NCBI GenBank assembly: GCA_030390025.1
Contig: JASTWF010000034.1
Location: 5,704,001 to 5,768,000, forward strand
Source: Squalus acanthias
Lineage: Eukaryota
Direction of reading: 5' to 3'
DNA: 64,000 nt
Shown here piece after piece: positions 12,001-63,689 of the stretch. Within the stretch, counting starts at the first letter, position 1. Every line of letters begins with the position of its first letter. A model generated the notes under the pieces. It worked only from the letters and a program-made list of their open reading frames with translations. It was not told the DNA's origin and ran no database searches. Position numbers and translations under genes: made by a program.

Positions 12001-13278
12001 TGAACCCTGGGAACTCCACTGTATACCTCCCTCCAGACCCAGTACTGAACCCTGGGGAACTCCACTGTATACCTCCCTCCAGCCCACAGTACTGAACCCT
12101 GGGGAACTCCACTGTATACGTCCCTCCAGACCCCAGTACTGAACCCTGGGGAACTCCACTGTATACCTCCCTCCAGACCCCAGTACTGAACCCTGGGGAA
12201 CTCCACTGTATACCTCCCTCCAGACCCCAGGACTGAACCCTGGGGAACTCCAGTGCATACCTCCTCAGACCCCAGTACTGAACCCTGGGGAACTCCACTG
12301 TATACCGCCCCCCAAGACAACAGTATTGAACCCTGGGGAACCCACTGTTTCCCTCCCCGCAAGACAACAGTATTGATCCCTGTGGAACTCCACTGCATAC
12401 CTCTCCCCAAGACATCAGTATTGAACCCTGGGGAACTCCACTGTATACCTCTCTTCAGACCACAGTACTGAACCCTGGGGAACTCCACTGTATACCTCCC
12501 TCCAGCCCACAGTACAGAACCCTGGGAAACTCCACTGTATACATCGCTCCAGACCCCAGTACTGAACCCTGGGGAACTCCACTGTATACCTCCCTCCAGA
12601 CCCCAGTACTGAACCCTGGGGAACTCCACTGTATACCTCCCTCCAGACCCCAGTACTGAACCCTGGGGAACTCCACTGTATACCTCCCTCCAGACCCCCA
12701 GTACCTGAACATGGGAGCTCCACTGTATCCCTCCCACCAAGCCCCCAGCACTGACCCTGGGGATCTCCACTAGTATACCTCCCCCCAGCCCCCCGAGTAC
12801 TGAACCCTGGGTAGCTCCACTGTATACCTCCCCCAGACCCCAGTAGCTGAACCCTGGGGAACTCCACAGTATACCTCCCTCCAGACCCCTGTTACTGAAC
12901 CCTGGGGAACTCCACTGTATACCCTCCCTGCCAACCCCAGTACTGAACCCTGGGGGAACTCCACTGCTTAGCCTCCCTCCAGGACCCCAGTACTGAACCC
13001 TGGGGAACTCCTCTGTATTCCTCCCTCCCAAACCCCAGTACAGATCCCTTGGAACTCCACTGTATACCTCCCTCCAGCCCCAGTACTGAACCCTGGGGAA
13101 CTCCACTGTATACCTCCCTCCAGCCACAGTACTGAACCCTGGGAACTCCACTGTAACCTCCCTCCAGCCCCAGTACTGAACCCTGGGGAACTCCACTGTA
13201 AACCTCCCTCCAGACCCCAGTACTGAACCCTGGCGAACTCCACTGTAAACTTCCCTCCAGCCCCTGTACTGAACCCTG
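1..13278. repeat. 47-bp tandem satellite, consensus (+) ACCTCCCTCCAGACCCCAGTACTGAACCCTGGGGAACTCCACTGTAT, derived from CR1 RT coding sequence; left block, cut by window edge and assembly gap
   Basis: 47-bp period read directly (e.g. from 1561). Three monomers give the 47-aa cycle WREVYSGVPQGSVLGSGGRYTVEFPRVQYWGLEGGIQWSSPGFSTGV in the minus-strand ORF track. Confidence 0.98.
4427..4672 (+). mobile_element. ~250-bp 5'-truncated retroposon (SINE-like G-rich body plus CR1 3' tail), copy 1 of 5
   Basis: Ends GATCAGCCATGATCG…GGCCGAATGGCCTACTCCTG…(TTCTATGT)3, closely matching the 3' end of the CR1 at 49015-49130. Flanked by TATAC at 4422-4426 and 4673-4677. Confidence 0.85.
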
Positions 13279-13778
13279 NNNNNNNNNNNNNNNNNNNNNN
13301 NNNNNNNNNNNNNNNNNNNNNNNNNNNNNNNNNNNNNNNNNNNNNNNNNNNNNNNNNNNNNNNNNNNNNNNNNNNNNNNNNNNNNNNNNNNNNNNNNNNN
13401 NNNNNNNNNNNNNNNNNNNNNNNNNNNNNNNNNNNNNNNNNNNNNNNNNNNNNNNNNNNNNNNNNNNNNNNNNNNNNNNNNNNNNNNNNNNNNNNNNNNN
13501 NNNNNNNNNNNNNNNNNNNNNNNNNNNNNNNNNNNNNNNNNNNNNNNNNNNNNNNNNNNNNNNNNNNNNNNNNNNNNNNNNNNNNNNNNNNNNNNNNNNN
13601 NNNNNNNNNNNNNNNNNNNNNNNNNNNNNNNNNNNNNNNNNNNNNNNNNNNNNNNNNNNNNNNNNNNNNNNNNNNNNNNNNNNNNNNNNNNNNNNNNNNN
13701 NNNNNNNNNNNNNNNNNNNNNNNNNNNNNNNNNNNNNNNNNNNNNNNNNNNNNNNNNNNNNNNNNNNNNNNNNNNNNN
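13279..13778. other. Assembly gap of 500 N
   Basis: Run of N; round size suggests a scaffolding placeholder. Confidence 1.
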
Positions 13779-13826
13779 CACAGAGTGGGTCTATACTTAG
13801 GGACTCCACAGATGGAGTCACAGAGT

Positions 13827-16270
13827 CTTCTTCTTAGGCAGTCCCACGGAAAACGAGGATGAGTGAGCACAGATGCAAGTGTCGTCTGCATACTGTAATT
13901 CGATGACAGAGGATGGAACGACCTTGGATCTGGACTGGAGGCGATGGAGATTGAACAGTTTCCCATTTGTTCTGTAGATTAGCTCCACTCGCGGCGGGAG
14001 CTTACTGAGGGTGAGATGGAGCATTGCAGCCAGGAACAACGAGAAGAGCGTTGTTGCGATGACACAGCCTTGCTTGACCCCGGTCCATACATGAATTGGG
14101 TCTCTGGTGGATCTGTTTGTCAGGATTACAGCTTGAATGTTGTCGTGAAGCAGGCGGAGGAAGGTGACAAACTTTTGAGGGCTGCTGAATTTGAGAGGAT
14201 ACTCCATAATCACTCACGGTTGATGGTGTCGAAGGCCTTTATGAGGTCAAAGAAGACCATGTACAGCGGTTGGTGCTGTTCCCTGAATTTCTCTTGTAGT
14301 TGAGGCGCGGTGAAGATCATGTCCATTGTGCCCCTTCGTGGGCGTAATCCGCATTGCCCATTCTGGGAGTAGCTCTTCAGCCACTGGGAGAAGGCGATTG
14401 AGGAGGTTTCTTGCGATGACTTTCCTGTGGCAGACAGCAGGGAGACTGCTCTGTAATTACCACAATCAGACTTGTCACCTTTCTTGAAGATGGTCACGAT
14501 TACGGCGTCTCTGAGATCCCCTGGCATGCTCTCCTCCTTCCAATAAGAGAAATGAGTTCATGTATTCGCGCCAATAGTACTTCTTCACCATGTTTTAGCG
14601 CCTCGGCGGGGATTCCATCTGCTCCTGAGGCCTTGTTGTTCTTCAGTTGTCGGATGGCCTTTTCAACCTCATGCCGGACTGAGGTTGTGCTGAGGTGGTT
14701 GCGGGCAGCATGCTGCGGGATGGAGTTGAGGACACTCGCATCGAAGACAGAGTTTCGGTTAAGCAGGTCTTCGAAGTCTCCTTCCAGGGGGCACTGTCTA
14801 CCTCTCTGTCCTTGATGAGTACCTCTCCATTCTTAGCCCGCAGTGGGGTAGGACCATGGGTGCTTGGGCAGTAGGTGGTCTTGAATGCGCTAAAGAATCC
14901 ACGCACGCCGTGGTTGTCGGCTAGCTGCTGGATCTCCTGCGCTTTCTCCACCCACCATCTGTTCTTAGGTCGCGAGTTTTTTGTTGGACCTCGGCCTTCA
15001 ATGTCTCTAGAGCTGCTTTCTTGCTCTCGAGTTCTGTTACTGTTTCCAGATCAGCAATGCCTTGCCCTTGCGACTTATCAGCTAGTGGATCTCCTGGTCG
15101 TTCTTGTTGAACCAGTCTTGATTTTTCCTGGTCGAGTGACCGAGCGTCTCTTCGCAGGTGCTGATTATGGAGGCCTTGAGTGCAGACCAGGCGCCGTGGA
15201 CACTGTGTCTCTGAATCACTGGGAGTCGTCAGGGTGGTTGTGAGGCGCAGGCTGAATAGAGCTTTCTTAGCAGGGTCTTTGAGTGCTCCAGGCGTTGATT
15301 TTCCTGCGGCATTGCATCTGTTGCCGCCGCTGTTTTGGGGCTACGTTGATGGAGATCACAGAGCTGATTAGGCAGTGGGCTGTCCAGCCTGCATCAGCTC
15401 CTGTCATGGCACAGGTGATGCGGACGTCCTTGCGGTCCCTCGCTCGGGCGATGACGTAGTCCAACAGATACCAGTGTTGGAGCGAGGGTGTTGCCATGAA
15501 GCCTTGTACTTGTCTCTCTGACGGAACAAGGTGTTGGTTATGAAAAGGCCATGTTCTTAGCATTTCGTCAGGAGGAGGGTACCATTGGAGTTGGCTTTCC
15601 CTACCCCCTCTCTGCTGATCACACCTCCCAGAGGTCTGTGTCCTTTCCACCTCTGGTGTTGAAGTCGCCAAGGGGGATCAACTTGTCGCCCATTGGGACT
15701 CGGGACAGGGATTGTTCGAGGCTGGAGTAGAATTCGTCTTTGGTCTTGTCTGTGGCTTCCAGTGTTGGGGCGGATGCACTGATGACCGTAGCGCACTGGT
15801 TCCGGGCTAGGTTGAGCCATGAGTGATGAGGCGTTCATTTATCCACAAGGGGAGTCTCTGAGACGTTTAACTAGCTCATTTTTTATGGCCACAACTACCC
15901 CATGGAGGCGGCGTTCTTCTTCAGGTTTGCCTTTCCAGAAGAAGGTGTACCCACAGCCTTGCTCCTTGAGCTGGCCTTCCTCTGGCCACTGGGTCTCGCT
16001 TAGGGCGGTGATGTCTATGTCGAAACGTCTGAGCTCCCGGGCAACGATAGCACAATGGCGTTCCGGTCTGTCGCTGTTGGCTTGTCCATGAGGGTTCTGA
16101 TGTTCCAGGTCCCGAACTTCATTTTAAAGGGTGGAAGATGCCTTTGCGTGAATTCTTTTAACGTGGGTTGGCCGTTGCACACCAGCTACCAAAAAAGGCT
16201 TGACAGAGCAAGGTCTTGGTCCAATGGCAAGGGGATCCAAGACGATTGGAGACCAGGCTCTGCTACATCG
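13827..16270 (-). mobile_element. RTE-clade LINE, degenerate APE endonuclease plus RT, C-terminal part missing
   Basis: ATG at 16122 begins MKFGTWNIRTLMD…DITALSET…GQLKEQGCGYTFFWKG (APE). RT pieces: IVTIFKKGDKSDCGNYRAVSLLS, DMIFTAPQLQEK, FFDLIKAFDTINRE, GVKQGCVIA, ELQYADD. Several frameshifts. Ends with a short (AAG)n tail at ~13827-13835. 5' boundary approximate. Confidence 0.88.
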
Positions 16271-16443
16271 GCCGAGCACACGCACTCAACCCACCCCTAC
16301 TGTCCTCCTCCCTCTTCCCGCAGGTCCTCTCTGCCTGCGTTTCATAGGCTGCAGTGTGGTCCTCCCGACCCCGCTGCGCCACTCCTGGGCATCGACCTTG
16401 CCCCCGGGCCCCTCCCTCGCCCCTGGGCCCCGCCCTTCTCATC

Positions 16444-16675
16444 GTGTGTCTCCTTCCAGTGAGTGTATCCCGCGGTGTGTCTCCTTCCAGTGAGTGTGTC
16501 CCGCGGTGTGTCTCCTTCCAGCGAGTGTGTCCCGCGGTGCCTCCTTCCAGTCAGTGTGTCCCGCGGTGTGTCTCCTTCAGTGAGTGTGTCCCGCGGTGTG
16601 ACTCCTTCCAGTGAGTGTGTCATGCGGTGTGTCTACTTCCAGTGAGTGTGGCCCGCGGTGTGTCTCCTTCTAGTG
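16444..16675. repeat. 31-bp minisatellite GTGAGTGTGTCCCGCGGTGTGTCTCCTTCCA, ~7.5 copies
   Basis: Units start at 16459, 16490 and so on. Confidence 0.93.
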
Positions 16676-17091
16676 AGGGAGCTTTATGCTGTATCTAACG
16701 TGTACTGCATCTGCCCTGGGAGCGTTTGATGGGACAGAGTAGAGAGAGCTTTAATCTGTATCTAATCCATGCTGCAGCCGCCCTGCGAGTGTTGATGGGA
16801 CAGTACAGAGGGAGCTTTACTCTGTCTAACTCGTGTTCTCCCTGTCCTGGACGGGTTTGATGGGACAGTGTAATCGGGAGCTTTACTCTGTATCACACAT
16901 TGTCTGAATGTGTCCTGGAAGTGTTTGATGGGATAGTGTAGAGGGAGCTTTGCTCTGTTTCTAACTCCCGCTGTACCTGCCCTGGGAAAGTTTGATGGGA
17001 CAGTGTAAAGGGAGCATTACTCTCTATCAAACGTGGTCTGAACCTGCCCTGGGAGTGTTTGATGAGACTGTTTAGAGGAAGCTTTACTCTG
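16676..17091. repeat. 67-bp degenerate tandem repeat (GGGAGCTTTACTCTGTATCTAACCCGTGCTGTACCTGCCCTGGGAGTGTTTGATGGGACAGTGTAGA), segment 1
   Basis: About 6 diverged units visible. The unit resembles a tandem repeat I recall as common in shark assemblies (not verified). Confidence 0.9.
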
Positions 17092-17797
17092 CACATTCAC
17101 TTTCAATGACACATGTACAAGGACACCCAGGTCCCTTTGTGCATCTGCGTTCACCAATCTTTCACCATTTAGGAAATACTCTGCCTTTCTGTTTTGTCTA
17201 CCAAACTGGATAACTTCACATTTATCGACATTATATTCCATCTGCCATGTTCACGCCCCTCACTGAGCCCTTTGAGATCCCCTTGAAGTCTCTTCACATC
17301 TTCTTCACAACTGACACTGCCACCTAGCTTTGTATCATCAGCAAATTTGGAAATGTTACATTTAGTCCCCTCATCCAAATCCTTGGTATAGATTGTGAAT
17401 AGCTGGGGTCCAAGCACCGATCCTTGTGGTACACCACTGGTCACAGCCTGCCATCCTGAAAAATACCCGTTTTTCCCTACTCTTTGTTTTCTGTCTGTTA
17501 ACCAATTCTGAAACCATGCTATTATATAACCCCCAATTCAATGTGCCCTCATTTTGTTCACCAAACTCTTGTGTGGGACCTTATCGAAGGTCTTATGAAA
17601 ATACAGATACACCACATCCACCGGTTCCCCTTTGTCTACTCCAGTAGTTACATCCTCAAAGAACTCCAATATGTTTGTCAAACAGGATTTCCCTTTCCTA
17701 AATCCATGCTGACTCTGCCCAATCTTACTATTAGTTTCTAAGTGCCCAGTTATTGCATCCTTTATAATAGATTCCTGCATTTTCCCAACTACTGATC
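17092..17797 (-). mobile_element. CR1 LINE internal RT fragment, no 3' tail
   Basis: SQHGFRKGKSCLTNILEFFEDVT, TFDKVPH, VTSGVPQGSVLGPQLFTIY, ISKFADDTKLGG, YNVDKCEVIQFG; frameshifted. Confidence 0.93.
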
Positions 17798-18318
17798 GAC
17801 CTGCCCTAGGAATGTTTCATGGGACATTGTAGAGGGAGCTTTACTCTTTATCTAACCCGTGCTTTACCTGCCCTGGGAGTGTTCGATGGGACAGTGTAGA
17901 AGCAGCTTTACACTGTATCAAACGTGGTCTGAACCTGCCCTGGGAGTGTTTGATGGGACAGTGTAGAGGCAGCTTTACTTTGCATCTAATAGAAGCTGTA
18001 CTTGCCCTGGGAGCATTTGATGGGACTTTGTAGAGGGAGCTTTACTCCGTGTCTAACCTGTGCTGTACCTGCAGTGGGAATGTTTGATGCGACAGTGTAG
18101 AGAGAGCTTTACTCTATCTAAAATAACAACAGAAAACGCTGGAAAAACTCAGCAGGCCAGGCAGCATCCGTGGAGAGAGAAAGAGAGTTAACGTTTCAGG
18201 TCGATGACCTTTACTCTATCTAACCCGTGCTGCACCTGCCCTGAGAGGGTTTGATGGGACATTGTAGAGGGAGCTTTAATCTCTATCTAACCCGTGCTGT
18301 ACCTGTCCTGGGAGTGAT
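17798..18318. repeat. 67-bp tandem repeat, segment 2 (interrupted at 18122-18208)
   Basis: Units at 17834 and 17901 give the 67-bp period. Confidence 0.9.
18122..18208. mobile_element. 87-bp insertion with 15-bp target-site duplication; resembles a Penelope-like terminal-repeat fragment
   Basis: CTTTACTCTATCTAA at 18107-18121 and 18209-18223. Insert reads AACAGAAAACGCTGGAAAAACTCAGCAGG…GTTAACGTTTCAGGTCGATGAC. Family call is from memory. Confidence 0.65.
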
Positions 18319-19860
18319 TTGAATGTTGTGAGCGTTCCTGCCTCTACCACCCTTTAAGGGAGTGAGCTCCAGATTTCAACCACCCTCTGGGTGAAAAGGT
18401 TTTGCCTCAAATCCCCTCTAAACCTCCTGCCCCTTACCTTGAAACTATGCCCCCTGGTTATTGACCCGTCTGCGAAGGTGAAGAATTTCCTTTTTATCCA
18501 CCCGAGCTATGCCCCTCATAATTTTGTACACCTCAATCAGGTCCCCCCTCAGCCTTCCCTGCTTTAAGGAAAACAACCCCATCCTGTCCAGTCTCTCTTC
18601 ACAGCTGAAACGCTCCAGCCCAGGTGACATCCTGGTGAATCTCCTCTGCACCCTGTCCAATTCAATCACATCCCTCCTATAGTGTGGTGACCAGAACTGC
18701 ACACAGTATTCCAGCTGTGGCCTAACCAGCGTTTTGTACAGCTCCATCATAACCTCCCTCCTCTTATATACTATGCCTCGGCTAATGAAGGCAAGTATCC
18801 AATATGCCTTTTTAACCACCTTATCTGCCTGTCCTGCTGCCTTCAGGGATCTATGTACATGCACGCCAAGGTCCCTCTGATCCTCTGTCCTTCCTAGGGT
18901 CCTACCATTCATTGTGTATTCCCTTGCCTTGTTTGTCCTCCCAAAATGCATCACCTCACACTTTTCAGGGTTAAATTACATTTGCCACTGTTCTGCCCAT
19001 CTAACCATCCAGCCTGTATCGTCCTGTAGTCTGAGGCTTCCCTTCTCGCTATTTACCACTCCACCAATTTTCGTGTCATCTGCGAACTTACATTCATATC
19101 TAAATCATTAATGTACACTACAAACAGCAAAGGACCCAGCACCGTTCCCTGCTGTACACCACTGGACACTGGCTTCCATTCACAAAAACTACCTTCGAGC
19201 ATCACCATCTGCCTCCTGCCACTAAGCCAATTTTGAATCAAATGTGCCAAATTGCCCTGGATCCCATGGCCTCTCACCGTCTTGATCAGTCTCCCATGTG
19301 GGACTTTATCAAAAGCCTTACTGAAGACCATGTAGACGACATCAACTGCACTATCCTCATCCATACACCTAGTCACCCCCTCAAAAATTCAATCAAATTT
19401 GTTAGAGATGATCTCACCCTGACAAAGCCATGCTGACTATCCCTGATTAATCCTTGCCTCTCCAAGTGGAGACTAATTTTGTCCCTCAGAATTTTTTCCA
19501 ATAATTCCCCTATCACTGATGTTAGGCTCACTGGCCTGTAATTCCCTGGTTTATCCCAACTACCCTTCTTGAACAATGGTACTATGTTAGCTGTTCTCCA
19601 GTCCTCTGGCACCTCCCCTGTGGTCAGAGAGGTTCTGAAAATTTGAGTCCGAGGCCCTGCAGTCTCCTCCCTTGCCTCACACTGCAGCCTGGGATACATC
19701 CCGTCAGGACCTGGGGATTTATTCACTTTGAAGCCCACTAAAACCGCTAGTACCTTCTTCCTCTCAATACTAATTTGTTCAAGTATATCACAATACCCCT
19801 GCCTAATTTCTATGCCTCCATCGTCCTTCCCCATAGTGAACACAGATGCAAAATATTAAT
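18319..19860 (-). mobile_element. CR1 LINE ORF2 fragment (linker, RT, C-terminal region), no 3' tail
   Basis: KSPGPDGMYPR, VPEDWRTANIVPLFKKG, NYRPVSLTS, FSKAFDKVPHGRL, LYKTLVRPQLEYCVQFWSPH; frameshifts and a small deletion near 19090. Confidence 0.94.
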
Positions 19861-19864
19861 TTCA

Positions 19865-19958
19865 GAGGTTTACTCTGTAACAAACATTGTCTGAACCTGC
19901 CCTGGGATTTTTTGATGGGACAGTGTAGAGAGTTTTTCTCTGTATCGAACCCCTGCTG
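19865..19958. repeat. 67-bp tandem repeat, segment 3, abutting the left edge of the main 47-bp array
   Basis: TTTACTCTGTAA…ACCTGCCCTGGGA…TTTGATGGGACAGTGTAGAGAG. Confidence 0.8.
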
Positions 19959-22900
19959 ACACCAGTACTGAACCCTGGGGAATCGTCCTGTAAACCTCTC
20001 TCCAGCACCCCCGTACGGACTCTTGGGGAACTCCACTGTCGATCTACCTCCAGACCCCAGTACTGAACCCTGGGGAACTCCACGGTATACCTCCCTCTAG
20101 CCCGTTGTACTGACCCCCTGGGGAACAGCACTGTATACCTCCCTCCAGCACCCAGTACTGAAACCTGGAGAACTCCGCTGGAAACCTCTCTCCAGCACTC
20201 CCGTACAGACCCTTGGGGAACTCCACTGTCTATCTCCCTCCCGCTCCTGATACTGTACCCTGGGGAACTCCACTGTTTACATCCCTCCAGACCCCAGTAC
20301 GGAACCCTGGGGATTTGCGCAGCATACATTCCCCCAGACAGCCGTACTGAACCCTGGGGAACTCCACTGTACACCTCCTTCCAGACCCCAGTACTGAACC
20401 CTGGGGAACTGCACTGTTTCCATCCCTCCAGCCCCCATTACTGAACCCTGGGGAACTCCACTGTATACCTCCCTCCAGCCTCCAGTACTGAACCCTGGGG
20501 AACTCCACTGTGTAACTCCCTCCAGCACCCAGTACTGAACCCTGGGAACTCCACTGTATACCTGCCTCCAGCCCCTGCTACTGAACCCTGGGAACTCCAC
20601 TGTACACCTCCCTCCAGACACCATTACTGAACACTGGGGAAATCCCACTGTATACTTCCCGCCAGACCCCAGTACTGAACCCTGGGGAACTCCACTGTAC
20701 ACCTCCCTCCAGACCCCTGTACTGAACCCTGGGGAACTCCACTGTTTACCGCCCTCCAGACACCAGTACTGAACCCTGGGGAACTCCACTGTATACCTCC
20801 CTCCAGCCCAAAGTACATAACCCTGGGGAACTCCACTGTATACATCGCTCGAGCCCAGTACTGTACTGTGGGGAACACCCACTGTACACCTCTCTCCAGA
20901 CCCCAGTACTGAACCCTGTGGAACAGGCACTTTATACCTCCCTCCAGCCCAAAGTAACAGCGTCCTGGGTATGTCCAGTGTTTGCCTACCTCCAGCCCCC
21001 TGTTTTACACCCTGGGGAACTCACTATATAACTCCCATCAGCCCAGAATACTGAACCCTGGGAAACTCCACTGTATACCTCCCTCCAGACCCAGTACTGA
21101 ACCCTGGGGAACTCCACTGTATACCTCCCCCAGACCCAGTACTGAACCCTGGGGAACTCCACTGTATACCTCCCTCCAGACCCAGTACTGAACCCTGGGG
21201 AACTCCACTGTATACCTCCCTCCAGACCCCAGTACTGAACCCTGGGGAACTCCACTGTATACCTCCCTCCAGACCCCAGTACTGAACCCTGGGGAACTCC
21301 ACTGTATACCTCCCTCCAGACCCCAGTACTGAACCCTGGGGAACTCCACTGTATACCTCCCTCCAGACCCCAGTACTGAACCCTGGGGAACTCCACTGTA
21401 TACATCCCTCCAGCCCCCAGTACTGAACCCTGGGGAACTCCACTGTATACCTCCCTCCAGACCCCAGTACTGAACCCTGGGGAACTCCACTGTATACCTC
21501 CCTCCAGACCCCAGTACTGAACCCTGGGGAACTCCACTGTATACCTCCCTCCAGACCCCAGTACTGAACCCTGTGGAACAGCACTGTATATCTCCCCGAA
21601 GCACACAGTACTGAACCATGGGTAACTCCACTGTATACCTCCCTCCAGCCCCTGCTACTGATCACTGACGAAATCCAGTGTATACTTCCCTCCAGACCAC
21701 AGTACTGAACCCAGGGGAACTACACTGTATACCTCCCCCCAGTCACCAGTACTGAACCCTGGGGAACTCCACTGTATACCTCCCTCCAGAAACCCAGTAC
21801 TGAACCCAGGGGAACTCCAATGTATACCTCCCTCCAGCCCACAGTACTGAACCCTGGGGAACTCCATTGTATACCTCCCTCCAGCCCACAGTACTGAACC
21901 CTGGGGAACTCCATTGTATACCTCCCTCTAGACCCTGCTACTGAACCCTGGGGAACTCCACTGTATACATCCCTCCATACACCAGGACTGAACCCTGGGG
22001 AACGCCACTGTATACCTCCCTCCAGCCCCCAGTACTGAACCCTGGGGAACTCCACTGTATACCTCCCTCCAGACCCCAGTACTGAACCCTGGGGAACTCC
22101 ACTGTATACCTCCCTCCAGACCCCAGTACTGAACCCTGGGGAACTCCACTGTATACCTCCCTCCAGACCCAGTACTGAACCCTGGGAACTCCACTGTATA
22201 CCTCCCTCCAGACCCCAGTACTGAACCCTGGGGAACTCCACTGTATACCTCCCTCCAGACCCCAGTACTGAACCCTGGGGAACTCCACTGTATACCTCCC
22301 TCCAGACACCAGTACTGAACCCTGGGGAACTCCACTGTATACCTCCCTCCAGCACCAGGACTGAACCCTGGGGAACTCCACTGTATACCTCCCTCCAGCC
22401 CCAGTACTGAACCCTGGGGAACTCCACTGTATACCTCCCTCCAGACCCCAGTACTGAACCCTGGGGAACTCCACTGTATACCTCCCTCCAGACCCCAGTA
22501 CTGAACCCTGGGGAACTCCACTGTATACCTCCCTCCAGACCCCAGTACTGAACCCTGGGGAACTCCACTGTATACCTCCCTCCAGACCCCAGTACTGAAC
22601 CCTGGGGAACTCCACTGTATACCTCCCTCCAACCCCAGTACTGAACCCTGGGGAACTCCACTGTATACCTCCCTCCAGCCCCATACTGAACACTGGGGAA
22701 CTCCACTGTATACCTCCCTCCAGCCCCAGTACTGAACCCTGGGGAACTCCACTGTATACCTCCCTCCAGTCCCCAGTACTGAACCCTGGGAAACTCCACT
22801 GTATACCTCCCTCCAGCCCCCAGTACTGAACCCTGGGGAACTCCACTGTATACCTCCCCACAGACCCAGTACTGAACCCTGGGGAACTCCACTGTATACC

Positions 22901-48800: not shown

Positions 48801-49014
48801 TACCTCCCCCCAGACCCCAGTACTGAACCTTGGGAACTCCTCTATACACCTCCCCTGCCAGACACCAGTATTGAACCCTGGGAACTCCACTGTATACCTC
48901 CCTCCAGCGCCCAGTACTGAACCCTGGGGAACTCCACTGTATACCTGCCCCCAGACCCCAGTACTGAACTCTGGGGAACTCCACTGTATAGCTCACTCCA
49001 GCCCCACGACTGAA

Positions 49015-51948
49015 CATAGAATCTTAGGAGCAGGAGTAGGCCATTCGGCCTCTCGAGCCTGCTCCGCCATTCAAGGAGATCATGGCTGATCATCCAAATT
49101 CAGTACCCTGTCCCTGCCTTCTCCCCATATACCTTGATCTCTTTAGCCTTAAGAAATATATCTAACTCCTTCTTGAATATATTTAATGAATTGGCCTCTA
49201 CTGCCTTTTGTGATAGAGAATTCCACAGGTTCACCACTCTTTGGGTGGAGAAATTCCTCCTCATCTCTGTCCTAAATGGCTTATCCGTTATCCTTAGTCT
49301 GTGTCCAGGTTCTGGACTCCCCGGCCATCGGGAACATCCTTCCTGCATCTAGTCTGCCTAGTCATGTTCGAATTTTGTAAGTTTCAATGAGTTCCCCTCT
49401 CATTCTTCTAAACTCCAGCGAGTATATTCCCAATCGACCCAATCTCTCCTCATACGTTATTCCTGCCATCCCAGGTATCAGCCTGGTGAATCTTCGCTGC
49501 TCTCCCTCCATGGCAAGAACATCCTTCCTCAGATAAGGCGACCAAAACTGCACACAATACTCAAGATGTGGTCTCACCAAAGCTCTGTACAACTGCAGCA
49601 AGACATCCTTGTTACTGTAATCGAATCCTCTCGCTACGAAGGCCAACATACCATTTGCCTTCTTAACCGCCTGCTGCACCTGCATGCTTACCTTCAGCGA
49701 CTGGTGCACAAGGACTCCCAGGTCTCGTTGCATTTCCCCTTCTCCCAATCTATTGCCGTTCAGATAATAATCTGCCTCCTGTTTTTGCCGCAAAAGTGGA
49801 TAACCTCGCAATTATCCACGTTATATTGCATCTGCCATGCTTCTGCCCAATCACCCAACCTGTCCAAATCATACTGGAGTTTCTCGGCATCCTCCTCACA
49901 GCACACATGCCCACCCAGCTTTGTGTCGTCTGCAAACTTGGAGATATTACATCTCGGTCCCTCGTCTAGATCATTAATGTATATTGTGAATAGCTGGGGT
50001 CTTAGGACCGATCCCTGCGGTACCCCACCAGTCACTGCCTGCCACTCGGAAAAAGACTCGTTTATTCCAACTGTTTCCTTCCTGTCTGCCAACCAGTTCT
50101 CTATCCCAGTCAGTACCTTACCCCCAATCCCATGTGCCTTAACTTTACACGCTAATCTCTTATGCGGGACCTTATCGAAAGCCTTCTGAAAGTCCAATTA
50201 CACCACATCCACTGGTTCTCCCTTATCTATTTTACCAGTTACATCCTCAAAAAATTCCAGTAGATTAGTCAAGCACGATTTACCTTTTGTAAATCCATGT
50301 TGACTTTGACCTATCCTGTTACTGTTTTCCAAGTGCTCTGCTATTTCATCTTTTGTAATGGACTCCAACATTTTCCCCACTACCGATGTCAGGCTTCCCG
50401 GTCTATAATTCCCCGTTTTCTCTCTCCCACCTTTTTTAAATAGTGGGGTAACATTAGCTACCCACCAATACATGGGAATTGTTCCAGTGTCTATAGAATT
50501 TTGGATATTGACTAGCAATGCATCTACTATTTCTCGGGCCACTTCCTTAAGTATCCTTGGATGTAGATTATCAGGCCCTGGGGATTTATCGGCCTTCAAT
50601 CCCGTCAATTTCCCTAACACCATTTCCCTACAATTACTGATTTCTTTCAGTTCCTCCCTCTCATTAGACCCTATGTTCCCCGACATCTCTGGGAGGTTAT
50701 TTGTGTGCTCCTTTGTGAAGACAGAACCAAAGTATGTATTCGATTGGTCTGCCATTTTTTGGTTCCCCATTATAAATTCCCCTGATTCTGACTGCAAGGG
50801 ACCTACGCTTGACTTCACCAATGTTTTTCTCTTCACATATCTATAGAAGCTTTTACAGTCAGTTTTTATGTTCCTCACAAGCTTACTCTCATACTCTATT
50901 TTCCCCCTCTTAATTAATTCCTTTGTCCTCCTCTGCTGAATCCTAAACTGCTCCCAATCCTCAGGTTTGCTGCTTTTTCTGGCCAATTTATAGGTCCTCT
51001 CTTTGGATCTTATGCTATCCCTAATTTCCCTTGTTAGCCACGGTTGATTCACATTTTTTGTTTTATTTTTATGCCAAACAGGGATGAACAGATTCTGTAG
51101 TTCATCCATGCGATCTTTAAATGTTTGCCTTTGCCGATCCACCATCAACCCTTTGGGTAACGCTCCCCAATCCACCCTACCTAACTTGCGCCTCATACCA
51201 TCGTAGTTTCCTTTATTTAAATTCAGGACCCTAGTCACTGAGTCAAATACTTCACTCTCCATCTTAATGAAGAATTCTATCATAATATGATCGCTCTGCC
51301 CCAAGGGGCCTCGCACAACAAGATTGCTAATTATTCCTTTCTAATTACATAATACCCAGTCTAAGATGGACTGATATCGAGTTGGTTGCTCGACATTTTG
51401 GTCCAGGAAAACATCCCGTGTACACTCCAGGCATTCCTCCTCCACAATATTGTTACTAATTTGGTTTGCCCAATCTATATGTAGATTAAAGTCACCCATG
51501 ATAACTGCAGTGCCCTTATTGCACGCGTCTCTAATTTCCTGTTTAATGCCATCCCCAACTTCAGCATTACTGTTTGGGGGTCTGTATACAACTCCCACTA
51601 AAGTTTTCTGTCCCTTGGTATTTCTCAGCTCTACCCATACAGATTCTACATCATCAGAGCTAATATCCTTCCTTATAATTGTGTTAATCTCCTCTTTAAC
51701 CAGCAATGCTACCCGGCTTCCTTTTCCTGTTTGCCTGTCTTTCCTGAATATTGAATACCCCTGGATGTTGAATTCCCAGCCTTGGTCACCCTGGAACCAT
51801 GTTTCCGATATCCCAGTCATATCATATCCGTTTACATATATTTGCGATGCTAATTCATCCACCTTATTACGAATGCTCCTCGCATTCAGATACAAAGCCT
51901 TCAGGCTGTTTTTTTTAACACTCCTAGACCTTTTAGAATTATTATATA
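49015..51948 (-). mobile_element. CR1 LINE, 5'-truncated, near-complete but disabled ORF2 (APE plus RT) with 3' UTR and tail, inserted in the satellite
   Basis: YLNARSIRNKVDEL…GISETW…VYRPPN…IMGDFNLH (APE); KSPGPDNLHPRILKE, QHGFTKGKSCLTNLLEFF, DFQKAFDKVPH, GVPQGSVL, FADDTKLGG, LEYCVQFWSP. Stops near 51341, 50198 and 49362 plus a frameshift near 49800. Tail …CTCCTGCTCCTAAGATTCTATGTTC. Confidence 0.96.
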
Positions 51949-53720
51949 CCGGGGAACTCCACTGTCTACCTCCCTCAAGCTCCCAGCACTAATCTCTGGG
52001 GAACACCACTGTATACCTCCCTCCAGACCCCAGTACTGAACCCTGGGGAACACCACTGTCTACCTCACCCCAGACACCAGTACTGAACCCTGGGGAACTC
52101 CACTGTATACCTCCCTCCAGACACCAGTACTGAACCCTGGGGAACTCCACTGAAAACCTGCCCCCAGACACCAGTACTGAACCCTGGGGAACTCCACCGT
52201 ATACCTCCCTCCAGACCCCAGTACTGAACCCTGGGGAACTCCACTGTATACCTCCCTCCAGACCACAGTACTGAACCCTGGGGAACTCCACTGTATCCCT
52301 CCCTCCAGACACCAGTACTGAACCCTGGGGAACTCCACTGTATACCTCCCTCCAGACCCCAGTACTGAACCCTCGGGAACTCCACTGTAAACCTCCCTCC
52401 AGCCCCCAGAATTGAACCCTGGGGAGCTCCACTGCATACTTCCCTCCATACCCCAGTACTGAACCCTGGGGAACTCCATTCTTGAACTCCCCCAGACCCC
52501 AGTACTGAACGCTGGTGAACTCCACTATATACCTCCCTCCATCCACCAGTACTGAACCCTGGGGAACTCCACTGTATAACTCCCTCCATACCCCAGTACT
52601 GAACCCTGGTGAACTCCACTGTGTACCTCCCTCCAGACCCCAGTACTGAACCTTGGGGAACTGCACTGTATACCTCGCTCCACACCCCAGTACTGAACCC
52701 TGGGGAAATCCACTGTTTACCTCCCTCCAGACACCAGTACTGAACCCTGGGGAAATCCACTGTATACCTCCCTCCATTCCCCAGTACTGAACCCTGGGGA
52801 AATCCACTGTATAGCTCCCTCCATACCCCAGTACTGCAGCCTGGGGAACTCCACTGTATACCTCCCTCCATACCCCAGTACTGAACCCTGGGGAAATCAA
52901 CTGTATAGCTCCCTCCATACCCCAGTAATGAAGCCTGGGGAACTCCACTGTATACCTCCCTCCATACACTGGTACTGAACCCTGCGAAACTCCACTGTAT
53001 ACCTCCCTCCAGCACCCAGTACTGAACCCTGGGGAACTCCACTGTATACCTCACACCAGACACCAGTACTGAACCCTGGGGAACTCCACTGTATACCTCC
53101 CTCCAGACACCAGTACTGAACCCTGGGGAACTCCACTGTATACCTGCCCCCAGACACCAGTACTGAAGCCTGGGGAACTCCACTGTATACCTCCCTCTAG
53201 ACCCCAGTACTGAACCCTGGGGAACTCCACTGTATCCCTCCCTCCAGACACCAGTACTGAACCCTGGGGAACTCCACTGTATACCTGCCTCCAGACCCCA
53301 GTACTGAACCCTGGGGAGCTCCACTGTATACCTCCCTCCATACCCCAGTACTGAACCCTGGGGAACTCCATTATTTAACTCCCCCCAGACCCCAGTACTG
53401 AACCCTGGGTAACTCCACTGTATACCTCCCTCCAGACCCCAGTACTGAACCCTGGGGAACTCCACTGTATACCTCCCTCCAGACCCCAGTACTGAACCCT
53501 GGGTAACTCCACTGTATACCTCCCTCCAGACCCCAGTACTGTACGCTGGGGAAATCCAATGTATAGCTCCCTCCATACCCCAGTACTGAAGCCTGGGTAA
53601 CTCCACTGTATACCTCCCTCCATACCCTTGTACTTAACCCTGGGGAACTGCACTGTATACCTCCCTCCAGCTCCCAGTACTGAACCCTGGGGAACTCCAC
53701 TATTTACCTCCCTCCAGCCC
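51949..53720. repeat. 47-bp satellite, right terminal block (~38 individually diverged monomers)
   Basis: Same monomer with scattered substitutions; ends at …TTTACCTCCCTCCAGCCC|GAAGACAGCC. Confidence 0.97.
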
Positions 53721-53980
53721 GAAGACAGCCATTCAACACAATTCTGTGTTTTCTGTCCCTGATCCAATTGTATCCATGCCGACTCTGCCCCTTTTATCCC
53801 ACATGCTTTAATTTGCAAACAAGCGTAATATGTGTAACTTTATCAAACGTCTTTTGAATTTCCGTATACAGAACATCAACTGCACAGCCCTCATCAACCC
53901 TGTTACCTCATCAAAACTCTCAATCAGTTTAGTCAAACACGATTTGCCTTCAACAAATGTGGGCTGGCTCTCCCTGATAA
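53721..53980 (-). mobile_element. Decayed CR1 RT fragment contiguous with the first satellite monomer (putative parent element)
   Basis: Minus strand with frameshifts: IRESQPTFVEGKSCLTKLIESFDEVT / VDEGCAVDVLYTEIQKTFDKVTHITLVCK / IKACGIKGAESAWIQ / NWIRDRKHRIVLNGC / SGWREVNSGVPQGSVLG. Confidence 0.92.
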
Positions 53981-54112
53981 CAAATACACAGTGGAATAAA
54001 GATCCAGTGAATTGGAAAATTGGGCTTGATCAGCAAGACACAGGGCAATAAATTTATCATTAATTGTTAACTTGAACATGACAACCAGCACAGAGGGGAA
54101 TAGAGCGAGAGA

Positions 54113-55136
54113 TTTCTCATCTACTCGTTGCCCCTTGGTGACATCATCCCAAAACACAGTGTCAGTTTACACATGTACGCTGACGACACCCAGCTCTAAC
54201 TCACTACCTCTTCTCTCGACCCCTCCACGGTGTCTAAATTGTCAGACTGCTTGTCAGAGATACAGTTCTGAATGAGCCAAAAGTTTCTCCAATTATATAT
54301 TGAGAAGACCGAAGCCATTGTTTTCGGTCCCTGCCACCAACACCGTTCCCGAGCCACTGACTCCATCCCTCTCCCTAACATCTGTCTGAGGCTGAACCAT
54401 ATTGTTCGCAACATTGATTTAATATTTGACCCTGAACTGAGCTTCCGACCACATATCCGCAGCATAACAAAGGCCGCCTACTTCCACCTCCGTAACATCG
54501 CCCGTCTCCGCCCTTGCCTCATCTCATCCGCTGCTGAAACCCTCATCCATGCCTTTGTTACTTCTAGACTTGTCTATTCCAACGCACTCCTGGCTGGCCT
54601 CCCACATTCCACCCTATGTAAACTTGAGGCCATCCAAAACTCGGCTGCCCGTGTCCTAACTCGTACCAAGTCCCGTTCACCCATCAACCCTGTGCTCGCT
54701 GAACTACACTGGCTCCCGGTTAAGCAGCGCCTCGATTTAAAAATTCTCATCCTGGATTTCAAATCCCTCCATGGCCTCGCCCCTTCCTATTTCTTATCTC
54801 CTTCAGCCCCACAAACCTTTGAGATATATGCGCTCCTCTAATTCTGCCCTCTTGAGCATCCCTGAATATAATCGCTCAACATTTGGTGGCCGTGCCTTCT
54901 GCTGCCTGGGCCCTAAGCTCTGGTATTCCCAATCTAAACCTCTCCGCCTCGCTACCTCTCTTTCCTCCTTGAAGACGCTCCTTAAAACCTACCTCTTTGA
55001 CCAAGGTTTTGGTCACCTGCCCTAATTTATCCTTATGTGGAACGGTGCCTATTTTGTGTCTTAAACTCCTGAGCAGCGACTTGGGACGTTTTACTACGTT
55101 AAAGGCGCTATATAAATACACGTTGTAGTTGTTGTT
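54113..55136 (+). mobile_element. L2-clade LINE, 5'-truncated, with 3' end
   Basis: [65 protein letters not shown]; ends …GTTAAAGGCGCTATATAAATACACGTTGTAGTTGTTGTT. Confidence 0.93.
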
Positions 55137-55377: not shown

Positions 55378-58300
55378 AGTTAATTGTTAAATTGGGTATG
55401 ATAACCAATACACAGGGTGAAACTGTCACAGTTAATTGTTAAATTGGGTATGATAACCAATGCAGAGGGTAAAACTGTCACAGTTAATTGTTAAATTGGG
55501 TATGATAACAATACACAGGGTAAAACTGTCACAGTTAATTGTTAAATTGGGTATGATAACCAATACACAGGGTAAAACTGTCAGTTAATTGTTAAATTGG
55601 GTATGATAACCAATACACAGGGTAAAACTGACACAGTTAATTGTTAAATTGGGTATGATAACCAATACACAGGGTAAAACTGTCAGTTAATTGTTAAATT
55701 GGGTATGATAACCAATACACATGGTAAAACTGTCAGTTAATTGTTAAATTGGGTATGATAACCAATACACAGGGTAAAACTGTCAGTTAATTGTTAAATT
55801 GGGTATGATAACCAATACACAGGTTGAAACTGTCAGTTAATTGTTAAATTGGGTATGATAACCAATACACAGGGTAAAACTGTCAGTTAATTGTTAAATT
55901 GGGTATGATAACCAATACACAGGTTGAAACTGTCAGTTAATGGTTAAATTGGGTATGATAACCAATACACAGGTTGAAACTGTCAGTTAATTGTTAAATT
56001 GGGTATGATAACCAATACACAGGGTAAAACTGTCAGTTAATTGTTAAATTGGGTATGATAACCAATACACAGGGTAAAACTGTCAGTTAATTGTTAAATT
56101 GGGTATGATAACCAATACACAGGGTAAAACAGTCAGTTAATGGTTAAATTGGGTATGATAAACAATACACAGGGTAAAACTGTCAAAGTTAATTGTTAAA
56201 TTGGGTATGATAACCAATACACAGGGTAAAACTGACACAGTTAATTGTTAAATTGGGTATGATAACCAATACACATGGTAAAACTGTCAGTTAATTGTTA
56301 AATTGGGTATGATAACCAATACACAGGGTAAAACTGTCACAGTTAATTGTTAAATTGGGTATGATAACCAATACACATGGTAAAACTGTCAGTTAATTGT
56401 TAAATTGGGTATGATAACCAATACACAGGGTAAAACTGTCAGTTAATTGTTAAATTGGGTATGATAACCAATACACAGGTTGAAACTGTCAGTTAATGGT
56501 TAAATTGGGTATGATAACCAATACACAGGTTGAAACTGTCAGTTAATTGTTAAATTGGGTATGATAACCAATACACAGGGTAAAACTGTCAGTTAATTGT
56601 TAAATTGGGTATGATAACCAATACACAGGGTAAAACTGTCAGTTAATTGTTAAATTGGGTATGATAACCAATACACAGGGTAAAACAGTCAGTTAATGGT
56701 TAAATTGGGTATGATAAACAATACACAGGGTAAAACTGTCAAAGTTAATTGTTAAATTGGGTATGATAACCAATACACAGGGTAAAACTGTCACAGTTAA
56801 TTGTTAAATTGGGTATGATAACCAATACACAGGGTAAAACTGTCAGTTAATTGTTAAATTGGGTATGATAACCAATACACAGGGTAAAACTGACACAGTT
56901 AATTGTTAAATTGGGTATGATAACCAATACACAGGGTAAAACTGTCAGTTAATTGTTAAATTGGGTATGATAACCAATACACAGGGTAAAACTGTCAGGT
57001 AATTTTTAAATTGGGTATGATAACCAATACACAGGGTAAAACTGTCAGTTAATGGTTAAATTGGGTACGAAAACCAATACACAGGATAAAACTGTCAGTT
57101 AATTGTTAAATTGGGTATGATAACCAATACACAGGGTAAAACTGTCACAGTTAATTGTTAAATTGGGTATGATAACCAATACACAGGGTAAAACTGTCAC
57201 AGTTAATTGTTAAATTGGGTATGACAACCAATACACAGGGTAAAACTGTTAGTTAATGCTTAAATTGGGTAACATAATCAATACACAGGTTAAACCTGTC
57301 ACAGTTAATTGTTAAATTGGTTATGATAACCAATACACAGAGTAAAACTGTCACAGTTAATTGTTAAATTGGGTATGATAACCAATACACAGGGTAAAAC
57401 TGTCAGTTCATTGTTAAATTGGGTATGATAACCAATACACAGGGTAAAACTGTCACAGTTAATTGTTAAAGTCGGTATGATAACCAATACACAGGGTAAA
57501 ACTGTCAGTTAATTGTTAAATTGGGTATGATAACCAATACACAGGGTAAAACTGTCACTGTTAATTGTTAAATTGTGTATGATAACCAATACACAGGGTA
57601 AGACTGTCAGTTAATTGTTAAATTGGGTATGATAACCAATACACAGGGTAAAACTGTCACAGTTAATTGTTAAATTGGGTATGATAACCAATACACAGGG
57701 TAAAACTGTCACAGTTAATTGTTAACTTGGGTATGATAACCAATACACAGGGTAAAATTGTCAGTTAATTGTTAAATTGGGTATGATAACCGATACACAG
57801 GGTAAAACTGTCACAGTTAATTGTTAAATTTGGTATGATAACCAATACACAGGGTAAAACTGTCATAGTTAATTGTTAAATTGGGTATGATAACCAATAC
57901 ACAGGGTAAAACTGTCAGTTAATTGTTAAATTTCGTATGATAACCAATACACAGGGTAAAACTTTCACAGTTAATTGTTAAATTGGGTATGATAACCAAT
58001 ACACAGTGTAAAACTGTCACAGTTAATTGTTAAATTGGATATGATAACCAATACACACGTTAAAACTGTCACAGTTAATTGTTAAATTGGGTATGATAAC
58101 CAATACACAGGGTAATACTGTCACAGTTAATTGTTAAATTGTGTATGATAACCAATACACAGGCTAAAACTGTCACAGTTAATTGTTAAATTGGGTATGA
58201 TAACCAATACGCAGGGTAAAACTGTTAGTTAATTGTTAAATTGGGTATGATAACCAATACACAGGGTAAAACTGTCACAGTTAATTGTGAAATTGGGTAT

Positions 58301-58600
58301 GATAACCAATACACAAGGTAAAACTGTCAAAGTTAATTGTTAAATTGGGTATGATAACCAATACACAGGGTAAAACTGTCACAGTTAATTGTGAAATTGG
58401 GTATGATAACCAATACACAGGGTAAAACAGTCAGTTAATTGTTAAATTGGGTATGATAACCAATACACATGCTAAAACTGTCACAGTAAATTGTTAAATT
58501 GGTTATGATAACCAATACACAGGGTAAAACTGCCGCAGTTAATTGTTAAATTGGGTATGATAGCCAATAAACAATGGTGTAAAGTTAATTGTTAATTCTT
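55378..58600. repeat. AT-rich 50/52-bp satellite GTTAATTGTTAAATTGGGTATGATAACCAATACACAGGGTAAAACTGTCA(CA), ~63 copies
   Basis: 50-bp period visible from 55681; ±CA length variant. Confidence 0.98.
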
Positions 58601-63353: not shown

Positions 63354-63534
63354 ATGGATCAGAATCTGAGAGCAGTAGATTGGAATGTTACAACAATGGA
63401 CAGGAGTTTCAGCTCGCAGTTTGACTTTCTTTCAGCAAATTATGATTGGCTGCCATTAGACTGGCGGATAGAGTTGGTGCTTCAGATTATCCAATACTTT
63501 TACTATCCCCTCCTTGCTGCTGTTGGGGTTCCTG
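63354..63534 (+). CDS. Probable first coding exon of a GPR139/GPR142-like class A GPCR (N-terminus and start of TM1)
   Basis: ACAATGG start; MDQNLRAVDWNVTTMDRSFSSQ…IIQYFYYPLLAAVGVP; NVT sequon; strong donor CCTG|GTAAGT at 63534/63535 (phase 1). YYP-x-LAAVGVP matches what I recall of chondrichthyan GPR139-like receptors. Alternative ATG at 63396. Exon 2 is not in the window. Confidence 0.7.
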
Positions 63535-63689
63535 GTAAGTGTCTCTAACCAACTATTAACTCTGCAAACCTTTGCTAACTGTATTACTATTCTTCATTCT
63601 TTGCTGCTGTTGGTGTCGTTGGTAAGTCTCTTTCTCCAGAAATTGGGTCTATAAATCACGTTTCACTGTATTACTGTTTGTTATTTAAA

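What the first reader, a model, noticed from the sequence alone, without database searches (positions are those of the whole stretch)
51949..53980. Satellite born inside a LINE reverse-transcriptase ORF, with the parent element still attached
Seen: on the minus strand a decayed CR1 RT (53980→53721) reads through KSCLT, FDKV and NWIRDRKHRIVLNGC into TCGGGCTGGAGGGAGGTAAATAGTGGAGTTCCCCAGGGTTCAGTACTGGG. Where GPLLF should follow, the same 47 nt restart instead and repeat about 900 times over ~44 kb. Established: W-x-x-V-x-SGVPQGSVLGP is the conserved RT motif upstream of FADD in CR1 ORF2, and TE-derived satellites are known in general. Inference: the array arose here by tandem amplification of that segment, plausibly seeded by GGG microhomology between the upstream TCGGGCTGG and the monomer end ACTGGG. 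Many diverged monomers keep the parent-like GGGCTGG junction, while uniform patches have GGGTCTGG. A tens-of-kb array with its birth junction preserved is the most notable feature of the window. I cannot tell whether this family has been described.
Basis: partly seen in the sequence, partly recalled or inferred. Interest (0 to 1): 0.82.

Follow-up and report, generated by a model that had tools for sequence, protein, structure and literature searches.

The report
LINE-born repeat riding receptor gene duplications
A 47-base repeat copied from a jumping gene's reverse-transcriptase motif sits upstream of dozens of duplicated receptor genes in this shark-type genome, likely born once and spread with those genes, so this window holds one large young copy rather than a unique birthplace.

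Summary
The junction is real. A decayed CR1 reverse-transcriptase fragment aligns with array-free CR1 copies through the first 47-mer (81-82%). But only 38 monomers follow it directly. The other ~850 lie behind a 2.9-kb CR1 insert, and 273 of them behind an assembly gap. The 'birth junction' is not unique: it occurs at 46 or more loci, plus five older paralogs, which form one clade (99/98) with this window in the young burst. The repeated unit is the upstream region of two-exon GPR139-like receptor genes (exon 1 at 63354-63534). An older paralog keeps both native junctions around about 17 monomers. A separate CR1 copy carries the same 47-mer, likely by ectopic conversion, and a third grew its own 64-bp array from the same motif. 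GGG microhomology would give 45-mers, whose junction was not found. Runs of five other organism labels hold the junction and the array. This is a new member of a known kind (LINE-derived minisatellite or satellite). The scan noted other LINE-born arrays in this genome, but not this one.

The parts
53721..53976 (-). 5'-truncated, frameshifted CR1 ORF2 (RT) fragment that hosts the array
   Evidence: 81-82% to array-free copies; parent is RVT_1; young clade
53674..53720 (-). First monomer, the host's own RT motif (GWREVNSGVPQGSVLG); carries an edge variant (AAATA) found in only 2 of 1351 monomers of the region
51936..53720 (-). Array block 1, 38 monomers of 47 bp
49010..51950 (-). 2.9-kb insertion of another CR1 family into the array; same insertion point in 9 of the other 29 loci; three copies within one array on C1934
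19962..49004 (-). Array block 2, 580 monomers, with four copies of a ~260-bp insert (CR1 3' tail in antisense plus a short repeat) amplified with the monomers
13779..19961 (.). Non-array end flank (CR1, 67-bp and 31-bp repeats, a further LINE); repeated at 99.7% identity 42.6 kb to the left
13279..13778 (.). 500-N assembly gap
45..13263 (-). Array block 3, 273 monomers in the window (718 to -22686); likely the second haplotype or a very recent duplicate of block 2
53977..54110 (.). Non-repeat flank marking the CR1 insertion site; shared by young and old paralogs
54111..55105 (+). L2-like LINE piece (label recalled from motifs), present at this place in the young clade, absent there in the older paralogs
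55378..58573 (.). Second, unrelated 50/52-bp AT-rich satellite of the same duplicated unit
63354..63534 (+). Exon 1 (N-terminus and start of TM1) of a GPR139-like receptor gene; the array lies 9.6 kb upstream, antisense; no exon 2 assembled before the next exon 1 (gap at 71114-71613)

Best explanation
This is one large, young copy of a 47-bp repeat array whose unit is a CR1 reverse-transcriptase motif; the array was likely born once in a dead CR1 upstream of an ancestral GPR139-like receptor gene, was likely multiplied passively as that gene family duplicated, and likely grew here by unequal exchange. Shown: the monomer is the RT motif; the hosts share one insertion site and form one clade; one old paralog keeps both native ends; array sizes run from 8 to more than 600 monomers; inserts inside the array are amplified with it. 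Inferred: the order of events. A first small duplication had no useful microhomology at the 47 register. It may have been a 64-bp slip at the natural 9-bp direct repeat followed by a 17-bp deletion, or a 46-bp slip at GGAC plus one G. Old gene duplications followed, then deletions that removed the native 3' half in most copies, a recent burst of duplications, and a sweep of the GGT junction over the older GGG junction. At least one ectopic transfer of the array between two separate CR1 copies (C3660) is inferred, direction unsettled. No function is inferred.
For: Colinearity with array-free CR1. 40 exact 24-base junctions on 20 small scaffolds, 14 on the window's scaffold; 40 best hits at 95-100%; union 46. 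All 30 loci examined share the upstream flank (1.1-1.9 kb); 2 of 10 share more than 9 kb. Tree of 35 of 45 flanks: 19 array hosts on one side of a 99/98 branch against 16 array-free copies, 15 young hosts at 100/99 with the window among them. C3707:257.5-258.3 kb has the shared insertion site, RT, about 17 monomers and the native 3' continuation. Exon 1 matches shark 'probable GPR139' proteins (E to 1e-32); 12 exon-1 and 7 stop-free exon-2 matches in the fetched loci. Eight copies of one 260-bp insert at 98-100% and three copies of the 2.9-kb insert in one array. Three of five old paralogs are GGG-rich, two are mixed, and the window is GGT-rich. The C1 64-bp array has made 48- and 35-bp units by internal deletion. 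Runs of organisms B, C, D, F hold the young-type flank with 2-5 differences in 111-129 bases, and K an older type.
Against: First monomers of three old paralogs keep the parent's T at position 25 while array interiors have A. This fits later drift but also import of the array from a donor copy. No 64-bp junction remnant and only one 46-bp junction were found in the arrays scanned, so the first step is not shown. Only 7 of the 30 junctions entered could be paired with an exon-1 hit in the expected orientation within 20 kb; one more pairs at 42 kb and two nearby hits have the wrong orientation. The exon search scored only 40 of 567 candidates, so most pairs were untested. Some of the 46 loci may be haplotype duplicates. 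The array-free copies in the tree were a biased sample (best hits to C3660's flank or to fixed patterns).
Confidence: 0.72

Rival explanations
1. The array was born in another CR1 copy (C3660 or a lost donor) and entered the receptor-gene CR1 by ectopic gene conversion before the gene family expanded; every 'birth junction' of the family is then a conversion junction.
For: C3660 has 8 monomers between native 5' and 3' flanks and no receptor exon or 50-bp satellite in 27 kb. Its 3' flank shares no real derived letter with the old paralog's (1 end artefact among 27 and 16). The register and the non-parental G are the same (8 of 8 vs 0 of 22). Edge monomers of old paralogs differ from the interior at position 25.
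Against: One C3660 monomer carries C at 25 and A at 46, as its nearest array-free relative does, which suggests C3660 was the recipient. The family array predates the oldest paralog split. Only one such outside locus was found (exact pattern).
Confidence: 0.15
2. One reading: the array arose in this very copy through GGG microhomology, and this junction is the unique birthplace.
For: The junction is intact and colinear. The window holds 292 of 1768 exact tandem junctions of the genome, so it is one of the largest arrays.
Against: 46 or more copies of the junction. The window is a tip of the young clade, with the longest end branch there (0.032). It lacks a native 3' end that another paralog keeps. 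GGG slippage predicts a 45-mer, found 0 times.
Confidence: 0.02
3. The RT motif is a hot spot, and 47-bp arrays arose independently more than once (receptor unit and C3660), as did the 64-bp array on C1 and the ~57-bp dimer on C19.
For: Independent 9-copy, 64-bp array on C1, cut at a 9-bp direct repeat; dimer on C19.
Against: No microhomology favours register 47. The shared non-parental G is unexplained. The parent motif is unremarkable in folding and G4 score. Only one locus with this motif was listed on the large scaffolds by a variable-gap search, against at least 621 parent copies. No valid control for other CR1 positions was obtained.
Confidence: 0.08
4. The unit is an SVA-like composite retroelement that carries the array and spreads by retrotransposition.
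For: In 9 of 30 loci a short array is followed by a CR1 3' half with tail.
Against: That 3' half is another truncated CR1 also found without any array. Shared sequence runs more than 9 kb upstream through old LINE debris to a gene exon, with exon 2 some 15-25 kb further on. Listed copies are confined to small scaffolds.
Confidence: 0.03

Closest known systems
Chicken HinfI (SCR1) repeat and CR1-C-derived Cen2/3/4/7/11 satellites (seen only as cited in PMC9659126 and PMC6947457, passages read)
   Same: Tandem DNA derived from CR1, including ORF2 sequence.
   Different: HinfI embeds a 3' UTR plus partial ORF2 in a longer unit. Here the unit is 47 bp from the RT core, with parent flanks kept, dispersed by gene duplication, and with no sign of centromeric location.
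LINE-1 ORF2-related tandem repeats PROsat (Phodopus) and Pvc 20 (seal) (as tabulated in PMC9659126)
   Same: Origin from the ORF2 of a LINE.
   Different: Another LINE clade; PROsat shares only a small region with L1, whereas here the whole monomer is LINE sequence.
Minisatellite families grown inside Alu, B1 and MaLR copies, and the Haber-Louis model of birth at 5-10-bp flanking repeats (as described in PMC6947457; primary papers not seen)
   Same: Short unit amplified within a dead retroelement. The C1 64-bp array fits the flanking-repeat model exactly (9-bp repeat).
   Different: The 47-bp register has 0-1 base of microhomology. The many loci come from segmental duplication of one insertion, not from many insertions. 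Array sizes reach tens of kb.
Satellite-plus-gene cassettes such as beta-satellite/KRAB-ZNF units of human 19p12 (named in earlier scan note e1-7939187; paper not read)
   Same: A tandem array duplicated together with members of an expanding gene family.
   Different: Here the monomer's origin is traceable to a single LINE motif, and only one sub-lineage of the receptor family is shown to carry it.

Membership tests
TE-derived tandem repeat (LINE ORF2 origin) | Monomer homologous to a defined TE segment | tested here: met
   monomer equals the RVT_1 motif of a CR1 subfamily with at least 621 exact 27-base matches.
TE-derived tandem repeat (LINE ORF2 origin) | Array bounded by the parent's own 5' and 3' sequence | tested here: met
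   5' side in the window; both sides at C3707:257.5-258.3 kb and C3660. In the window itself no native 3' side was found.
CR1 clade of LINEs | Match to a curated CR1 consensus (Dfam/Repbase) | not testable with these tools
   No such library here. The CR1 label rests on recalled ORF2 motifs and 3'-tail form; only RVT_1 was tested.
Satellite DNA in the strict sense | Very long arrays, high genome share | tested here: inconclusive
   Blocks of 29 and 36 kb here, but most paralogs hold 8-60 monomers. About 6,600 monomers or 0.3 Mb genome-wide, extrapolated from 1768 exact junctions. It spans the minisatellite-satellite boundary.
Satellite DNA in the strict sense | Heterochromatic or centromeric location | not testable with these tools
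   All listed arrays are on small scaffolds; no cytology or CENP-A data.
Haber-Louis minisatellite birth | 5-10-bp direct repeat flanking the unit in the parent | tested here: not met
   0-1 base at period 47; 9 bases at period 64-65, 3-4 at 46, 3-5 at 40. Met by the C1 64-bp array only.
SVA-like composite retroelement | Common ends, tail and target-site duplication around a compact unit | tested here: not met
   Homology extends for many kb into flanking debris and gene exons, with variable ends. Target-site duplications were not searched for separately.
Segmental-duplication cassette of GPR139-like genes | Array tied in fixed orientation to a paralogous gene | tested here: met
   Exon 1 upstream-antisense in the window and 11 other exon-1 matches; 7 stop-free exon-2 matches. 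Not checked for most of the 46 junctions.

The most novel reading that the evidence does not exclude
The array can home: because its unit is a conserved LINE motif, any copy of the parent CR1 family is a homologous landing pad, and ectopic gene conversion has moved the 47-bp array into at least one unrelated CR1 copy (C3660). Meanwhile array edges act as recurrent deletion and exchange points that remodel the upstream regions of a fast-expanding shark receptor family. The 50-odd paralogs then form a natural time series from a one-copy motif to a 30-kb satellite.
Probability: 0.35. Interest if true: 0.62.

Novelty: new member of a known kind. Interest (0 to 1): 0.38.

Why it matters
Satellites born from LINE coding sequence are known, and the scan has noted several in this genome, so the origin alone is no surprise. 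The value is as a test case. One birth event, more than 50 paralogs of two age classes, sizes from 8 to over 600 monomers, internal insertions as markers, an independent 64-bp sister array and a likely ectopic jump allow direct measurement of what lets a minisatellite become a satellite. It also warns that a 'preserved birth junction' seen in one window can be one of dozens of duplicates.

Tried and rejected
GGG-microhomology seeding: rejected. Unusual structure in the parent motif: G4Hunter maximum 0.76-1.04 and fold energies mostly mid-range in 7 parent copies; the tandem junction lifts G4Hunter to 1.44; not an explanation for birth. Hot-spot control: TRF on 69.8 kb of CR1-covered sequence in 51 loci found no tandem duplication, but it also missed the known C19 dimer, so it is uninformative. 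C2098 and C2339 candidates were single motifs. The C1934 match to the native 3' pattern was a chance variant inside an array. More 64-bp arrays: only C1 (exact pattern). Long-word megablast of the arrays gave nothing; replaced by a k-mer shift count. No RNA holder listed. Organisms G, H and I gave only trace cover of the tandem part; not used. Pfam gave no hit for the window's own 37-aa piece. Literature searches that found no description of this repeat; Dfam, Repbase and subscription journals were not searchable, and no supplements were read, where shark satellite catalogues could list it. The scan's own index had no look-alike.

Full report
Observation. On the minus strand a decayed reverse-transcriptase fragment runs from about 53976 to 53721 and on into a 47-base motif; the named peptides lie in three frames. 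Against two array-free copies from elsewhere in the genome the alignment is unbroken through the first monomer (252/311 and 255/311), and the parent stretch is Pfam RVT_1. The label CR1 is recalled from motifs; no repeat library was at hand. The window has 894 monomer hits, 891 in arrays of about 42.7 kb. They are not one run: 38 monomers, a 2.9-kb CR1 insert, 580 monomers with four short inserts, 6.2 kb of other repeats, a 500-N gap, then 273 monomers of a block that continues to -22686. The flank behind that last block is 99.7% identical over 6.5 kb to window 13779-20300, and array segments match at a shift of about 42.6 kb. It is therefore either the other haplotype or a very recent duplicate; I could not tell which.

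The junction is one of many. A search with the junction and its upstream flank returned 40 scored loci at 95-100%. An exact 24-base junction pattern gave 40 matches on 20 small scaffolds, 14 on the window's own; the union is 46. All 30 loci examined share the upstream sequence, and 2 of 10 loci fetched at length share more than 9 kb. Of 13 further array regions, five keep an older, 79-84% identical version of the RT flank and the same insertion site, and eight have lost the flank. In a tree of 35 of 45 flanks (10 dropped for aligning under 200 bases; 14 of 29 young loci plus the window were given), the 19 array hosts lie on one side of a 99/98 branch against 16 array-free copies. The 15 young ones form a 100/99 group that contains the window with the longest end branch. 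Exact tandem junctions number 1768 genome-wide, the first listed on C48, with 292 in this window; by proportion that is about 6,600 monomers (inference). The window is thus a large but young member.

What the repeated unit is. At 63354-63534 (+) lies an exon ending in a TM1 start and a GT donor. It matches shark 'probable GPR139' receptors, 14 hits among 18 candidates. The fetched loci hold 12 exon-1 matches and 7 stop-free exon-2 matches of 287-299 codons. The array lies antisense, from about 1 to 18 kb upstream of exon 1 in the loci where both were seen. For the window's exon 1 no exon 2 is assembled before the next exon 1, with a gap in between. Against this: only 7 of 30 junctions entered paired with an exon-1 hit in the expected orientation within 20 kb, but that search scored 40 of 567 candidates. 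An earlier scan note (e1-7939187) describes another array upstream of this gene family; the 50/52-bp satellite at 55378-58573 may be that one (not tested).

The birth state. Most paralogs have lost the parent's 3' half. Nine of 30 end in a GA-rich stretch leading to a different truncated CR1, which also occurs without an array. Five end in a third flank. One old paralog, C3707:257.5-258.3 kb, keeps the insertion site, the RT, about 17 monomers (15 scored) and the native continuation GPLLF..FADD-like sequence. That locus, not this window, shows the birth with both ends.

How it began and grew. GGG slippage would give a 45-mer; its junction was found 0 times, against 517 GGT, 175 GGG and 20 GGA junctions of the 47 type in the window and 14 other stretches. 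In five parent copies the 47 register has 0-1 base of microhomology, period 64-65 has 9 and period 46 has 3-4. On C1 a separate CR1 copy has a 9-copy array of period 64 at exactly that repeat, with secondary 48- and 35-bp units, and a C19 copy has a dimer. A 64-bp slip followed by a 17-bp deletion, or a 46-bp slip plus one G, are therefore plausible routes; neither is shown, since no 64-bp remnant and one 46-bp junction were found. Parents have A at monomer position 3 (21 of 22); three old paralogs mostly have G, two mix G and T, and the window mostly has T (515 of 808). Growth by unequal exchange is inferred from eight 98-100% copies of one 260-bp insert in this region and three copies of the 2.9-kb insert within the C1934 array of 330 monomers.

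The outsider. C3660 has 8 monomers between native 5' and 3' flanks, in unrelated surroundings. Its 3' flank shares no real derived letter with the old paralog's, so it is a separate insertion, yet register and the non-parental G (8 of 8) agree. It was found by a pattern that fixed positions 25 and 46, so these two are no evidence; register and position 3 are. Ectopic gene conversion is the simplest reading. One C3660 monomer carries the states of its nearest array-free relative, hinting that it was the recipient; edge monomers of three old paralogs keep the parent's T at position 25, which leaves the reverse open. An exact pattern found no second outsider.

Other organisms. Contigs from four runs labelled B, C, D, F (three studies) cover the junction with 2-5 differences in 111-129 bases, cover the insertion-site flank, and show tandem junctions. 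A run labelled K has a contig spanning RT, first monomer and 33 bases of the second with 12 differences; runs G, H, I gave only traces. If the labels are distinct species, array and unit predate their split. Contig depth gives no copy number.

Comparison with what is known. Passages of two reviews (PMC9659126; PMC6947457) list CR1-derived chicken repeats, L1-ORF2-related repeats, minisatellites grown in Alu, B1 and MaLR, and the flanking-repeat model; I saw the primary papers only as citations. Of the snowy-owl preprint on ERV-derived satellites I saw the abstract and outline. Passages of an elasmobranch genome preprint say small shark chromosomes are rich in tandem repeats and do not mention CR1 or GPR139. 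Six searches found no description of this repeat; repeat databases, subscription journals and supplements were not seen. Earlier scan notes report other LINE-born arrays in this genome, none like this sequence.

Verdict. The feature is real and the RT origin is right, but uniqueness, local birth and the GGG seed are wrong. It is a new member of a known kind, interest 0.38. The boldest reading left open, an array that homes into other LINE copies and remodels receptor-gene flanks, has probability about 0.35 and would deserve about 0.62.

Noticed in passing
window 63354-63534 (+); L164, L171, L174, L176, L049, L059, L144, L167, L170, L175, L065; exon 2 in L181, L182, L186, L188, L191, L193, L195: Large family of two-exon GPR139-like receptor genes with a variable N-terminal segment and variable extracellular loops but near-identical membrane cores; 567 first-look candidates for exon 1. 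A search for GPR139, shark and expansion listed 4 papers, none on this by title.
   Followed up: partly
L146 (G000:C1:107.30 Mb): Independent 9-copy array of the same CR1 RT motif with period 64, cut at a natural 9-bp direct repeat, with secondary 48- and 35-bp units.
   Followed up: yes
L089 (G000:C19:44.94 Mb): Two-copy tandem duplication of the same motif at a third register (about 57 bp).
   Followed up: partly
window 55378-58573; 71.6-102 kb right of the window start (L061-L065): AT-rich 50/52-bp satellite with 102- and 154-bp higher periods, 3 kb here and 30 kb next door, present in young and old paralogs.
   Followed up: partly
window 13279-13778 and flanks: Scaffold gap with a 99.7% identical duplicate of the array end and 9 kb of flank at 42.6-kb shift; possible false haplotype duplication.
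   Followed up: partly
L070:7411-7542 and L069:4587-4718: Two copies of a small spliced exon (44 codons, one with stops) downstream of a CCAAT-rich, GC-rich promoter-like stretch, among 30-, 38-, 67- and 85-bp tandem arrays; gene not identified.
   Followed up: no
L147-L157 (C5, C11, C19, C20; also C22): A separate 44-bp tandem repeat on large scaffolds that shares an 11-base word with the 47-mer; relation untested.
   Followed up: no
window 63496-63630: Partial repeats of the end of exon 1 with its splice donor just inside the intron, seen in several paralogs; possible alternative donors.
   Followed up: no
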